A DNA stretch of 40,342 nucleotides from a virus, in the IMG/VR virus record IMGVR_UViG_3300028815_000121; one strand, given 5' to 3'. The notes beneath the pieces were generated by a model, which did no database searches, was not told the origin of the DNA, and saw nothing but the letters and a program-made list of their open reading frames with translations. A program made the position numbers and the translations under genes. Below are positions 28,510 through 29,637 of this stretch, piece by piece. Position 1 is the stretch's first letter; every line of letters begins with the position of its first letter.

Positions 28510-29637
28510 ATGTCATTGAAGGTCATAGATGTTCTGAAAAGTAAAGGAGAAGCTTATCTTGAAGAAGCTCTCAATATAAATATAAGACGTTATGAAGATA
28601 GACTCATTCTCAATTATGATATGATTGCTTCTCCAACACACCATCCAATATCTCAGGAATGCAGGGGATTAATCCTTAGCCCTGGGCCTGAATATAAAAT
28701 CTTGTGCAGATCCTTCAAACGATTTTTAAACTATCCTGAAGACCCCAATAGAGATAAATTCAATATCAATAAAGCTTCATGTTATGAAAAAATTGATGGG
28801 AGTCTTATAAATATCTATTATGATGGGATAAGATGGCATCCTGCTACAAGGAGTATGGCCTATGCTGAAGGACAATTGTGTTATAATGCCTTAAAGAATT
28901 TTAATATGTTAGTAAGTGAAGTGTTAGGTGGAAAAGTTCATGAGGTAGTAAATCCATTATTCGATAAAAATAATACATATATCTTTGAAGTAGTTTCCCC
29001 AGAGTCCAGAGTTCATGCTATTTATCCCAACAAGGATCTATACTTACTGACCATTAAAAATAAGTTTACTGGGGAAGAATATTTAAATGATGTTCCTTTA
29101 CTGGCAAAAGAACTGGGAGTAAAAGTCCCAAGAATCTATAAATTTGAATCATTGGATCACATAGTTTCAGTAGTGAAAGAATTACCTATGCTGGAAGAGG
29201 GATATGTTTGTTTAATTGACAGAGAGGGCACTGATCCTTGGAGAATCAAAATAAAGAATCCAAAATTTTTAGCATCAGCAGGGATTAGACAAAGTACAAT
29301 GGCAAGTCCTAACAATATAATATACCTGGTGATGAATGCAAAATGGGATGATTATTTGGGGATCTTTCCAGAGGATCGGGAACGATTTATGCCCTATATA
29401 AAAGCTTATCATAAATTGATAAAGGAAATCAAACACAACTGGCACATGTATTCTGAAATAAAGAATCCAAAAGAATTTGCCAGTAAGGTAAAAAGTCTTA
29501 GGTGTAATGGTATATTATTTGCCATGTACAATAAGAAAGTGACTATTAATGAAGCAATAGCTGATCTTAGGGAACCTGCTAAGATAAGACTATTGAATAA
29601 GTATGTGGAGAGATTAGATGACAGAATTGAAATTTGA
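28510..29637 (+). CDS. RNA ligase, T4 Rnl1 (RnlA) family
   Basis: Nucleotidyltransferase motif I CYEKIDGSLINIYYDGIRWHPATRSMAYAEGQ aligns with T4 Rnl1 [31 protein letters not shown]. Confidence 0.75.
   Translation: MSLKVIDVLKSKGEAYLEEALNINIRRYEDRLILNYDMIASPTHHPISQECRGLILSPGPEYKILCRSFKRFLNYPEDPNRDKFNINKASCYEKIDGSLINIYYDGIRWHPATRSMAYAEGQLCYNALKNFNMLVSEVLGGKVHEVVNPLFDKNNTYIFEVVSPESRVHAIYPNKDLYLLTIKNKFTGEEYLNDVPLLAKELGVKVPRIYKFESLDHIVSVVKELPMLEEGYVCLIDREGTDPWRIKIKNPKFLASAGIRQSTMASPNNIIYLVMNAKWDDYLGIFPEDRERFMPYIKAYHKLIKEIKHNWHMYSEIKNPKEFASKVKSLRCNGILFAMYNKKVTINEAIADLREPAKIRLLNKYVERLDDRIEI

What the first reader, a model, noticed from the sequence alone, without database searches (positions are those of the whole stretch)
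28510..29637. Dispersed RNA end-healing/sealing toolkit: Rnl1-like ligase, HD + P-loop kinase pair, CCA-adding enzyme, YqeY-like protein
The window encodes: an Rnl1-family RNA ligase (28510-29637, KIDGS motif block matching T4 RnlA); a full CCA-adding enzyme with HD domain (36523-37956); a YqeY/GatB-C-like protein (38876-39274); and an adjacent HD-phosphohydrolase/P-loop-kinase pair (18003-19335) that could be a split Pnkp-like 3'-phosphatase + 5'-kinase. In T4 the Pnk + Rnl1 pair repairs tRNA cut by host anticodon nucleases. Adding a CCA-adding enzyme would also counter toxins or defence systems that remove or damage tRNA 3' ends. Three of these genes carry the conserved upstream element described above, suggesting co-regulation. 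No tRNA genes are in this window, so the CCA enzyme is not obviously there to mature phage tRNAs.
Basis: partly seen in the sequence, partly recalled or inferred. Interest (0 to 1): 0.65.

Follow-up and report, generated by a model that had tools for sequence, protein, structure and literature searches.

The report
Phage tRNA repair genes, no split Pnkp
This fragment of a new low-GC phage carries an RNA ligase and a tRNA CCA-adding enzyme of the tRNA-repair kind already described in large phages, but the nearby HD-hydrolase and kinase pair looks like DNA and nucleotide metabolism, not the missing RNA end-healing enzyme.

Summary
All five genes exist at the stated coordinates.

**What holds up**
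- The ligase (28510-29637) is an Rnl1-family enzyme with every catalytic motif intact.
- The 477-aa protein (36523-37956) is a full bacterial-type class II CCA enzyme with an HD domain.
- The YqeY-like call passes Pfam.
- The shared upstream element is real: TGAAG-N16-CCGATA, four complete copies, apparently a phage promoter.

**What does not hold up**
- The kinase folds like deoxynucleoside or thymidylate kinases. It matches polynucleotide kinases only over the P-loop.
- Neither family occurs near Rnl1 in 54 related viral loci. In 27 of those, a T4-type Pnk is fused to, adjacent to or within 3.4 kb of Rnl1.
- "No tRNA genes" is probably an edge effect. In the only true relative, the homolog of the window's last ORF is followed by the same promoter, tRNA-Lys(UUU), RlaP and an Rnl2-type ligase.

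**Verdict**
This is a new member of a known kind; such kits were described by Iyer et al. 2021. The only open oddity is that no Pnk is visible in about 74 kb of this lineage.

The parts
28510..29637 (+). Rnl1-family ATP-dependent RNA ligase, 375 aa. Motifs: ECRG at residues 50-53, KIDGS at 94-98 (adenylylation lysine K94), FEVV at 159-162, EGYV at 230-233, IKIKN at 246-250.
   Evidence: Pfam PF09511 scores 60.8 bits and PHROG 562 gives E 6e-40. The alignment to T4 Rnl1 structure 2c5u has E 1e-9.
28428..28453 (+). Intrinsic-terminator-like hairpin (11 pairs plus a T-rich tail). It closes the upstream MVP-like gene, so Rnl1 starts a new transcription unit.
28465..28490 (+). Promoter-like motif GAAG-N16-CCGATA, 20 nt upstream of the Rnl1 start codon.
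36478..36503 (+). The same promoter-like motif upstream of the CCA enzyme gene.
   Evidence: A motif copy lies upstream of the CCA unit in relative L069, at 2570.
36523..37956 (+). Class II tRNA nucleotidyltransferase (CCA-adding type), 477 aa, with a C-terminal HD domain. Motifs: A GGAVRD..DVD at residues 33-49, B RRDFTIN at 115-121, D EDPNR at 159-163, HDAGK at 276-280.
   Evidence: Pfam, PHROG and NCBIfam hits. PDB CCA enzymes 6ibp and 1miv match at E 3e-39 and 1e-34. Bacterial homologs share 45-52% identity and the same domain set.
38861..39274 (+). YqeY/GatB-C-like protein: 137 aa from the ATG at 38861, or 132 aa from 38876. Its role is unknown and it is not conserved in the sister phage.
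   Evidence: Pfam YqeY scores 38 bits and PHROG 1460 gives E 4e-17. It is absent from L069. Only 4 phage records match.
39624..40322 (+). Last ORF of the window (232 aa, unknown function). It is a synteny marker: its homolog in the sister phage is followed directly by tRNA-Lys(UUU), RlaP and an Rnl2-type ligase.
40331..40342 (+). Window end 'cTGAAGaaatatta'. This is probably the first part of another copy of the promoter motif, cut off by the contig end.
   Evidence: compared with L069 6109-6134, which drives tRNA-Lys
18003..18626 (+). YhaM-type HD-domain protein, 207 aa. Judged NOT part of the RNA kit; it is probably a nuclease or phosphohydrolase of the replication and recombination module.
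18670..19335 (+). dNK/thymidylate-kinase-like P-loop kinase, 221 aa, with its own copy of the promoter motif at 18625-18650. Judged NOT a polynucleotide kinase.
   Evidence: The model has pLDDT 92. Deoxynucleoside kinases are the best Foldseek hits at E 1e-5, while CthPnkp kinase ranks 34th. Family hits are AAA_28, dNK and PHROG 'thymidylate kinase'. hhalign to the Pnk kinase profile covers only 28 columns.
25099..25614 (+). Cysteine-phosphatase (DSP-like) protein, 171 aa, with HCEAGISR at residue 120. It keeps its position upstream of Rnl1 in the sister phage. It is only a speculative candidate for end-healing.
   Evidence: Pfam DSPc scores 29 bits, below its cut-off. PHROG 5614 matches. The L007 homolog has E 3e-61. 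It is found near 0 of 54 other Rnl1 loci.

Best explanation
The window is part of a new low-GC phage with one known relative. It carries accessory genes for keeping tRNA usable during infection.

The Rnl1-type ligase reseals broken tRNA that has 3'-OH and 5'-phosphate ends. The bacterial-type CCA-adding enzyme rebuilds or completes tRNA 3' ends. Its HD domain may also remove 2',3'-cyclic or 3'-phosphates, as known for the E. coli enzyme (my own knowledge).

By synteny with the sister phage, the set very probably continues just beyond the right edge of the window. There the sister phage has a phage tRNA-Lys(UUU), an RlaP nucleotidyltransferase and an Rnl2-type ligase.

Several of these units are driven by one phage promoter class, TGAAG-N16-CCGATA.

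The HD protein and the P-loop kinase, 9-10 kb upstream, belong to the DNA replication and nucleotide module. The HD protein is a YhaM-like 3'-end nuclease or phosphohydrolase. The kinase is a dNK/TMPK-like nucleoside or nucleotide kinase. They are not a split Pnkp.

Shown here: the gene identities, motifs, folds, synteny and motif positions. Inferred: the substrates, the repair function in vivo, and what lies off-window.
For: **Ligase and CCA enzyme**
- Rnl1 family membership and all nucleotidyltransferase motifs.
- CCA enzyme domains and motifs, with 45-52% identity to bacterial CCA enzymes.

**Sister phage (sample SRR31326378)**
- L007 shares 26 genes with the window in the same order, including HD-kinase, the DSP-like gene and Rnl1.
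- L069 carries the CCA enzyme (62% identity), then the homolog of the window's last ORF. After that come tRNA-Lys(UUU) (Rfam 70 bits, CCA encoded), RlaP (PF10127) and an RNA_ligase (PF09414) protein.

**Promoter motif**
- It lies upstream of Rnl1, the CCA enzyme, the kinase and orf 30492 in the window. In the relative it lies upstream of the CCA unit, tRNA-Lys, the Rnl2 unit and a tRNA-like element upstream of Rnl1.
- Before tRNA-Lys there is no ribosome-binding site, so the motif is a promoter and not a translation signal.

**Rnl1-clade loci in IMG/VR (54 loci)**
- 18 of 54 have tRNA genes within 10 kb, including tRNA-Lys(UUU) directly upstream of Rnl1 in L015.

**HD protein**
- Relatives lie beside RecT or DnaB.

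**Kinase**
- dNK-type folds are the best matches, with thymidylate-kinase PHROGs and AAA_28/dNK in Pfam.
- Homolog P0123 lies between an SbcC-like gene and a DNA polymerase.

**Literature**
- Phage kits of Rnl1/Rnl2, Pnk, phosphatases, RlaP, CCA enzyme, Thg1 and tRNAs are described in PMC7824862.
Against: - No biochemical data exist, so the substrates of the ligase and the nucleotidyltransferase are inferred from family membership only.
- The ligase and CCA enzyme score below NCBIfam's equivalog cut-offs: 54 bits against 242, and 213 against 290. Exact specificity (tRNA versus other RNA; CCA versus A-adding or poly(A)) is therefore open.
- No end-healing enzyme of the T4 Pnk type is visible in the window or in 33.6 kb of the sister phage. 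Repair of 2',3'-cyclic-P/5'-OH breaks is thus not accounted for.
- The off-window continuation (tRNA-Lys, RlaP, Rnl2) is seen only in the relative. The relative differs from the window by several insertions and lacks YqeY.
- T4 Rnl1 also has a non-enzymatic tail-fibre attachment role (my own knowledge).
Confidence: 0.62

Rival explanations
1. One reading: the HD protein and the adjacent P-loop kinase form a split Pnkp, like Runella HD-Pnk but as two polypeptides. They would heal 2',3'-cyclic-P/5'-OH tRNA ends for sealing by Rnl1.
For: - The gene order HD then kinase matches the domain order of Runella HD-Pnk, which has an N-terminal HD phosphoesterase and a C-terminal kinase (PMC6097658).
- The adjacency is conserved in the sister phage, with a 3-nt gap.
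- The kinase carries the same promoter motif as Rnl1 and the CCA enzyme.
- No canonical Pnk is visible.
- HD-like phosphatases are said to substitute in a few jumbo phages (PMC7824862).
- The subclade that includes the window kinase lacks the Glu found after strand 2 in half of the family, so its substrate may differ.
Against: - Kinase fold: deoxyadenosine and deoxynucleoside kinases are best at E 1e-5, while C. thermocellum Pnkp kinase ranks 34th at E 2e-3 with TM 0.37.
- The profile-profile alignment to 23 phage Pnk kinase domains covers only 28 P-loop columns.
- Family members hit AAA_28, dNK and thymidylate-kinase PHROGs. Only 2 of 20 hit AAA_33.
- A family member sits between an SbcC-like gene and a DNA polymerase, with no HD gene or ligase nearby.
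- The HD protein is YhaM-type and elsewhere lies next to RecT or DnaB.
- The 120 listed hits are 177-359 aa, most about 180-210 aa. None of the three longer forms read (250-359 aa) has a P-loop or kinase fusion.
- None of 54 Rnl1 loci has either family within 10 kb, whereas 27 have T4-type Pnk.
- The pair lies 9 kb from Rnl1, inside the thymidylate-synthase-like to primase block.
Confidence: 0.07
2. There is no coordinated toolkit; the genes are independent accessories. The CCA enzyme would simply mature or maintain the phage's own tRNAs. Rnl1 would be a mobile gene with some other role (tail-fibre attachment as for T4 gp63, or general RNA processing). YqeY would be unrelated.
For: - The genes are 7-10 kb apart and separated by about 17 unrelated small ORFs.
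- Rnl1 is patchily distributed and is the only gene shared with most of the 54 loci.
- CCA and Rnl1 co-occur within 10 kb in only 2 of 54 loci.
- YqeY is missing from the sister phage.
- The promoter motif also precedes unrelated genes: orf 30492, the kinase, and L069 11817.
Against: - In both phages of this lineage, Rnl1, the CCA enzyme, tRNA-Lys, RlaP and Rnl2 lie within about 20 kb on one strand and behind the same promoter class.
- RlaP is a family defined by its association with RNA-repair ligases (PMC12776372 abstract; PMC7824862).
- Vibrio phage D181 shows a similar dispersed Pnk-Rnl1-Thg1-RlaP-CCA-Rnl2 stretch.
Confidence: 0.2
3. A Pnk-less repair kit. The lineage truly lacks Pnk because it faces metal-dependent tRNases, such as the PARIS AriB or OLD Toprim nucleases. 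These leave 3'-OH/5'-phosphate ends that Rnl1 or Rnl2 can seal directly. tRNA-Lys(UUU) would serve as a spare, RlaP would refill lost nucleotides, and the CCA enzyme would restore 3' ends.
For: - No T4-type Pnk is found in the 40.3-kb window or in 33.6 kb of the sister phage.
- The slot directly downstream of Rnl1 holds Pnk, fused or adjacent, in 19 of 54 related loci. Here it holds small unrelated ORFs.
- AriB cleaves tRNA-Lys(UUU) and leaves 3'-OH and 5'-P ends (PMC12409363).
- A viral tRNA-Lys neutralises PARIS (PMC11464382).
- The relative encodes tRNA-Lys(UUU) beside RlaP and Rnl2.
Against: - Both genomes are incomplete, so Pnk may lie elsewhere. In 8 of 27 loci it is 0.4-3.4 kb away from Rnl1.
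- 27 of 54 related loci also lack Pnk within 10 kb without any known implication.
- The host and its defence systems are unknown.
Confidence: 0.11

Closest known systems
T4 Rnl1 (RnlA, gp63) with Pnk: the tRNA-Lys anticodon-nuclease (PrrC) repair pathway
   Same: The ligase belongs to the same Pfam family. It has the lysine-adenylylation motif KxDGS and motifs III, IV and V, and it aligns to T4 Rnl1 structures over residues 44-294. The sister phage carries tRNA-Lys(UUU), the same tRNA species targeted by PrrC.
   Different: - Identity to T4-like phage Rnl1 genes is only about 24-25%. It is 33% to the best phage hits and up to 43% to an IMG/VR contig.
- The score is below NCBIfam's RnlA equivalog cut-off.
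- No Pnk is adjacent or anywhere in the window.
Dispersed RNA-repair kits of large and jumbo phages (Iyer, Anantharaman, Krishnan, Burroughs, Aravind 2021, PMC7824862); example: Vibrio phage D181
   Same: It combines Rnl1, a CCA-adding enzyme and, in the relative, RlaP, an Rnl2-type ligase and a tRNA. These are spread over about 20 kb among small ORFs on one strand.
   Different: - D181 and half of the related loci have a canonical Pnk, and D181 also has Thg1. Neither is seen here.
- The window phage shares no other genes with those phages.
Runella slithyformis HD-Pnk (Munir and Shuman 2017; described in PMC6097658)
   Same: An HD protein is followed by a P-loop kinase, in the same order as the two domains of HD-Pnk.
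   Different: - These are separate ORFs with a promoter motif between them.
- They are not in an operon with a ligase.
- The kinase is dNK-like and not Pnk-like.
- The HD protein is YhaM-type.
- The HD-Pnk sequence itself could not be obtained for direct comparison.
YhaM (Cbf1) 3'-exonuclease of Firmicutes, PDB 9h3f (PMC12107432)
   Different: The N-terminal OB domain of YhaM is lacking and identity is 19%. Activity is unknown.
Deoxynucleoside kinase / thymidylate kinase family (e.g. M. mycoides dAK 2jaq, Drosophila dNK)
   Same: These are the best structural matches for the kinase model. The family has a P-loop plus a conserved R-Q and a D-R-(S/W)-x-x-D block. I read that block as resembling the ERS/DRY motifs of these kinases (my own knowledge).
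   Different: - TM scores are only about 0.5, and Pfam hits are below cut-off.
- The family is rare, with 19 representatives among 1.84 billion proteins.

Membership tests
Rnl1 (T4 RnlA-type RNA ligase, Pfam PF09511) | Covalent nucleotidyltransferase motif I, KxDG, with the adenylylated lysine | tested here: met
   KIDGS at residues 94-98 aligns to T4 KEDGS.
Rnl1 (T4 RnlA-type RNA ligase, Pfam PF09511) | Motifs III, IV and V, plus the ECRG arginine | tested here: met
   FEVV at 159, EGYV at 230, IKIKN at 246 and ECRG at 50 all align to their T4 counterparts.
Rnl1 (T4 RnlA-type RNA ligase, Pfam PF09511) | Score above the curated family threshold | tested here: met
   Pfam scores 60.8 bits against a cut-off of 28.3. 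The stricter NCBIfam equivalog TIGR02308 is NOT reached: 54 bits against 242.
Rnl1 (T4 RnlA-type RNA ligase, Pfam PF09511) | Rnl1-specific C-terminal helical domain (tRNA specificity in T4) | tested here: inconclusive
   The PHROG 562 profile match runs to residue 359 of 375. The alignment to T4 itself stops at residue 294. No structure was predicted for the ligase.
Rnl1 (T4 RnlA-type RNA ligase, Pfam PF09511) | Seals 3'-OH/5'-P breaks in tRNA anticodon loops | not testable with these tools
   This needs biochemistry.
T4-type Pnkp (P-loop 5'-kinase + DxDxT HAD 3'-phosphatase) | A homolog encoded in the window | tested here: not met
   tblastn with the Pnk of Vibrio phage D181 and of Paraglaciecola GD1 gave nothing better than E 0.2. 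phmmer found no hit in the window, L007 or L069.
HD-Pnk (Runella type) | C-terminal part is a polynucleotide 5'-OH kinase | tested here: not met
   hhalign of kinase family A3 against the Pnk kinase profile aligns only columns 1-28, the P-loop. dNK-type folds are the best matches and CthPnkp ranks 34th.
HD-Pnk (Runella type) | HD domain related to the HD-Pnk 2',3'-phosphoesterase domain | not testable with these tools
   The Munir and Shuman 2017 paper and the sequence are not held. The afdb50 library was unavailable. The closest solved fold is YhaM.
HD-Pnk (Runella type) | Fused, and in an operon with a ligase | tested here: not met
   These are two ORFs about 9 kb upstream of Rnl1, with a separate promoter motif. 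None of the three longer HD homologs read has a kinase fusion. Neither family lies near Rnl1 in any of 54 loci.
Class II CCA-adding enzyme | Head-domain motifs A (GGxVRD..DxD), B (RRDxxIN) and D (EDxxR) | tested here: met
   Motifs lie at residues 33-49, 115-121 and 159-163. Pfam PolyA_pol scores 105.6 bits.
Class II CCA-adding enzyme | Full bacterial architecture with an HD domain | tested here: met
   PolyA_pol_RNAbd, HD (HDAGK at 276) and tRNA_NucTran2_2 all pass their cut-offs. The bacterial homologs share this domain set.
Class II CCA-adding enzyme | CCA specificity, as opposed to A-adding, CC-adding or poly(A) polymerase | tested here: inconclusive
   The best NCBIfam model is 'CCA tRNA nucleotidyltransferase', but the score is 213 bits against a cut-off of 290, and PcnB models also score.
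YqeY-like (Pfam PF09424) | Score above the gathering threshold over the full domain | tested here: met
   38 bits against a cut-off of 27, covering residues 10-133. The family's function is unknown.
YhaM-type HD nuclease | HD-domain fold with the extended metal-binding motif | tested here: met
YhaM-type HD nuclease | N-terminal OB nucleic-acid-binding domain | tested here: not met
   The protein is 207 aa of HD domain only.
dNK / thymidylate-kinase-like small-molecule kinases | Family-level sequence or fold match beyond the P-loop | tested here: inconclusive
   The fold match is the best available but modest (TM 0.5). Pfam dNK and AAA_28 hits are below cut-off for the window protein. PHROG 'thymidylate kinase' hits are found for 12 and 9 of 20 family members.

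The most novel reading that the evidence does not exclude
The lineage runs a repair kit that truly lacks Pnk. Rnl1, an Rnl2-type ligase, RlaP, a CCA-adding enzyme with an HD domain, and a spare tRNA-Lys(UUU) would together be tuned to tRNases that leave 3'-OH/5'-phosphate ends (PARIS AriB or OLD-type Toprim nucleases). Alternatively, it heals ends with non-canonical enzymes: the CCA enzyme's HD domain, the conserved DSP-like cysteine phosphatase upstream of Rnl1, or the HD + kinase pair.
Probability: 0.15. Interest if true: 0.55.

Novelty: new member of a known kind. Interest (0 to 1): 0.3.

Why it matters
tRNA is now recognised as a common target of bacterial anti-phage systems. Phages are known to answer with spare tRNAs and with repair enzymes.

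This locus adds a divergent lineage in which Rnl1, a CCA enzyme and (in the sister phage) tRNA-Lys(UUU), RlaP and a second ligase sit behind one promoter class. No polynucleotide kinase-phosphatase is visible.

If a complete genome confirms that absence, it would be a natural test case. It could show whether ATP-dependent ligases alone counter metal-dependent tRNases such as PARIS AriB.

As it stands, the finding is a well-supported but ordinary example of a phage RNA-repair gene set. Its most novel claim, the split Pnkp, is not supported.

Tried and rejected
1. **Nucleotide search.** A search of the ligase region against 50,697 phage records found no match, so the phage is new at the DNA level.
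2. **Close Rnl1 relatives in IMG/VR.** A single-protein query found none. An alignment query was needed.
3. **Extending the genome.** The longest contigs carrying these genes are 40.3 and 43.4 kb. The rest of the sister contig (64.8 kb) could not be walked, because the look-up tool refuses proteins that are not from the window.
4. **HD-Pnk paper and afdb50.** The Munir and Shuman 2017 paper is not held and the afdb50 fold library was unavailable. A direct comparison of the HD protein with Runella HD-Pnk was therefore impossible.
5. **PDB sequence search.** Searches with the HD protein and the kinase gave only noise or P-loop matches. Structure prediction was needed.
6. **CoaE-like kinase (21618-22250) as a possible 5'-kinase.** Rejected, because it and the neighbouring CoaD pass NCBIfam equivalog cut-offs for CoA synthesis.
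7. **DSP-like phosphatase as a healing enzyme.** It is conserved in position only in the sister phage and is found in none of 54 other Rnl1 loci. It is kept only as speculation.
8. **First motif pattern.** CCGATAWRTAA missed two sites because of a 1-nt length difference. It was replaced by GAAG-N16-CCGATA.
9. **PHROG and Pfam scans of the other ORFs.** All ORFs between and around the ligase and the CCA enzyme were scanned. Nothing else was RNA-related.
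Full report
**What the window is.**
The 40.3-kb window has 33% GC, a strongly positive GC skew throughout, and every plausible gene on the + strand. It has no nucleotide match among 50,697 phage records. Its conserved replication proteins are only 30-35% identical to those of known phages.

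It is a fragment of a new phage lineage. The contigs that carry its genes are 40.3-43.4 kb long.
- The left two thirds is a replication and nucleotide-metabolism block. It holds helicases, a DnaB-like protein, a 5'-3' exonuclease, both topoisomerase II subunits, NUDIX, an R2K ATP-grasp protein, a thymidylate-synthase-like protein, a primase and a DEAD_2 helicase.
- The right third is mostly small ORFs of unknown function.

**Check of the observation.**
- The ligase (28510-29637) passes Pfam RNA_lig_T4_1 with 60.8 bits against a cut-off of 28.3, and PHROG 562 at E 6e-40.
- It aligns to T4 Rnl1 crystal structures at E 1e-9. The ECRG arginine, the KIDGS adenylylation motif, FEVV, EGYV and IKIKN all fall on their T4 counterparts.
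- The 477-aa protein (36523-37956) has the PolyA_pol head, RNA-binding, HD and tRNA_NucTran2_2 domains, and motifs A, B and D of class II CCA enzymes.
- It is 45-52% identical to bacterial CCA enzymes with the same architecture. It looks like a captured cellular gene.
- The YqeY-like protein passes Pfam with 38 bits against a cut-off of 27.
- The HD protein and the P-loop kinase are real ORFs with the expected catalytic motifs, but have only sub-threshold Pfam hits.
- No tRNA gene is detected in the window.

**The upstream element.**
The element shared by three of the genes is TGAAG-N16-CCGATA, followed by an A/T-rich stretch and a strong ribosome-binding site.
- It occurs four times without mismatch, always on the + strand and just upstream of a start codon. 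The genes are the kinase (18625), Rnl1 (28465), orf 30492 (30443) and the CCA enzyme (36478). About one match, allowing one mismatch, is expected by chance.
- It lies between the HD gene and the kinase, so those two genes are not one tight unit here.
- Upstream of Rnl1 it follows a good intrinsic-terminator hairpin.
- In the sister phage the same motif precedes a tRNA gene that has no ribosome-binding site. It therefore behaves as a promoter and not as a translation signal.

**The HD + kinase pair is not a split Pnkp.**
There is a real precedent for the idea. Runella HD-Pnk has an N-terminal HD phosphoesterase and a C-terminal polynucleotide kinase, encoded next to a ligase (PMC6097658). The evidence here points elsewhere.

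*HD protein.*
- It belongs to a family of more than 330 proteins with invariant H..HD..H..H..D residues; the listed members are mostly about 180-210 aa.
- YhaM is a Mn-dependent 3'-deoxyribonuclease and exoribonuclease (PMC12107432).
- Family members elsewhere sit directly after RecT, or a few small ORFs downstream of a DnaB-like helicase, in prophage-like replication and recombination modules. No ligase or kinase is nearby.
- None of the three longer family members read (250-359 aa) contains a P-loop.

*Kinase.*
- Its family is rare, with 19 representatives among 1.84 billion proteins.
- Its model (pLDDT 92) matches deoxyadenosine and deoxynucleoside kinases best (E 1e-5), followed by thymidylate, shikimate and adenylate kinases. 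The C. thermocellum Pnkp kinase appears only at rank 34, with E 2e-3 and TM 0.37.
- Family members hit Pfam AAA_28 (16 of 20), dNK (5), Thymidylate_kin (1) and PHROG 'thymidylate kinase' families (12 and 9 of 20). Only 2 of 20 hit AAA_33.
- A profile-profile alignment against 23 phage Pnk kinase domains covers only the 28 P-loop columns.
- One family member lies between an SbcC-like gene and a DNA polymerase.
- In the window the pair lies between a thymidylate-synthase-like gene and the primase.

My reading is a YhaM-like nuclease or phosphohydrolase and a nucleoside or nucleotide kinase serving DNA metabolism.

**What partners Rnl1 elsewhere.**
An alignment of four ligases retrieved 54 IMG/VR loci with relatives of this Rnl1, at 23-43% identity.
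- 27 of them have a T4-type Pnk within 10 kb. It is fused to Rnl1 in 5, lies within 300 nt downstream in 14, and lies 0.4-3.4 kb away in 8.
- 18 have tRNA genes within 10 kb, including tRNA-Leu and tRNA-Lys(UUU) immediately upstream of Rnl1 in L015.
- Two have a CCA enzyme, two have RlaP and one has Thg1.
- None has the HD family, the kinase family or the DSP-like protein.
- Vibrio phage D181 shows Pnk, Rnl1, Thg1, an RlaP-like nucleotidyltransferase, a CCA enzyme and a second ligase spread over 17 kb.

In the window no Pnk homolog exists. The slot directly downstream of Rnl1 holds a 95-aa ORF with no family hit and a 100-aa ORF matching only an unknown-function PHROG.

**The sister phage changes the picture.**
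Only one other phage is truly related. It is represented by two contigs from run SRR31326378.

*L007.* This is the last 19.3 kb of a 64.8-kb contig.
- It shares 26 genes with the window in the same order, including HD-kinase (61% and 58% identity), the primase, the helicase, the DSP-like phosphatase and Rnl1 (55% identity).
- It lacks the ATP-grasp segment, the CoaE/CoaD pair and the MVP-like gene.

*L069.* This is 14.3 kb of a 26.8-kb contig.
- It carries the lysozyme-like gene, the CCA enzyme (62% identity) and the homolog of the window's last ORF (E 5e-79).
- It then continues with the promoter motif, tRNA-Lys(UUU) (ARAGORN; Rfam 70 bits; CCA encoded), an RlaP nucleotidyltransferase (PF10127) and an RNA_ligase (PF09414, Rnl2-type) protein.

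The window stops 20 nt after its last ORF. It ends with 'cTGAAGaaatatta', which looks like the start of that same promoter. The absence of tRNA genes is therefore most likely an edge effect.

YqeY has no homolog in L069. Neither sister contig has a Pnk.

**Comparison with what is known.**
Iyer et al. (PMC7824862) describe this kind of kit in large phages. Its parts are:
- Rnl1 and/or Rnl2;
- polynucleotide kinases;
- HAD phosphatases, and rarely calcineurin-like or HD phosphatases;
- RlaP;
- the CCA-adding enzyme, described as restoring tRNA 3' ends;
- Thg1;
- phage tRNAs.

This locus is a new, divergent member.

The one unusual point is the missing Pnk. PARIS AriB cleaves tRNA-Lys(UUU) and leaves 3'-OH/5'-phosphate ends (PMC12409363), and a viral tRNA-Lys neutralises PARIS (PMC11464382). 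Ligases without a healing enzyme would suffice against that class of nuclease. With two incomplete genomes this remains a possibility and not a finding.

**Verdict.**
- Observation: confirmed.
- Interpretation: partly supported. Rnl1, the CCA enzyme and the shared promoter hold up. The split-Pnkp idea does not. YqeY is uncertain. The tRNA argument is undermined by synteny.
- Novelty: new member of a known kind.
- Interest: 0.3.

Noticed in passing
window 25959-28409 (+): An 816-aa protein has a Major Vault Protein shoulder domain (94.9 bits), a Vault_3 repeat and an SPFH/Band 7 region, followed by a long coiled-coil tail. It lies directly upstream of Rnl1. It is absent from the sister phage. 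It has homologs (43-45% identity) in only three huge metagenomic phage genomes of 462-735 kb.
   Followed up: partly
window 21618-22250 and 22186-22734 (+): Dephospho-CoA kinase (CoaE, 95.7 bits against a cut-off of 65.6) and pantetheine-phosphate adenylyltransferase (CoaD, 134 bits against 103) overlap each other. Both exceed NCBIfam equivalog cut-offs, so the phage encodes the last two steps of CoA synthesis. A DUF3307 membrane protein precedes them. The block is absent from sister contig L007.
   Followed up: partly
window 12555-16486 (+): NUDIX (12555-13058), an R2K-clade ATP-grasp protein (14305-15114) and a divergent archaeal-type thymidylate-synthase-like protein (15761-16486) lie just upstream of the HD + kinase pair. 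Together they could form a modified-nucleotide or DNA-modification module.
   Followed up: no
window 25099-25614 (+); L007 15868-16380: A cysteine-phosphatase (dual-specificity-like) protein has the HCEAGISR signature and belongs to PHROG 5614 (unknown function). It keeps its position 1-3 kb upstream of Rnl1 in both phages of the lineage. It is not found near Rnl1 elsewhere.
   Followed up: partly
L007 16705-16776 (+): The sister phage has a tRNA-like element (Rfam tRNA 43 bits; ARAGORN calls a 4-base 'anticodon'). Its acceptor, D and T arms are good but its anticodon arm is aberrant. It lies right after a copy of the promoter motif, 1 kb upstream of Rnl1, and overlaps a called 85-aa ORF. The window has no counterpart.
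   Followed up: partly
L051-L054, L059 (IMG/VR loci): In five related viral contigs, Rnl1 and Pnk similarity fall in one ORF of about 690-700 aa. This would be a natural ligase-kinase-phosphatase fusion, read as a stop-to-stop frame. It probably explains why the J2-1 ligase match is annotated 'polynucleotide kinase'.
   Followed up: partly
L015 22-189; L038 9844-9920: In the two IMG/VR contigs with the closest Rnl1 relatives, tRNA genes sit within 100 nt upstream of the ligase gene. L015 has tRNA-Leu(UAA) and tRNA-Lys(UUU); L038 has tRNA-Ile(UAU).
   Followed up: no
window 31736-32431 (+): A DnaJ-like protein has a J domain and several CxxCxGxG zinc-finger repeats. It lies between Rnl1 and the CCA enzyme.
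   Followed up: no
window 24369-24549 and 15398-15522: These are the two longest stretches without a listed ORF of at least 60 aa on the + strand (181 and 125 nt). No RNA family, tRNA or promoter-motif copy was found in them.
   Followed up: no
L069 2803-2929: In the sister phage a 127-nt gap lies directly upstream of the CCA gene and contains an extra CCGATA. The window has only 27 nt at this position.
   Followed up: no
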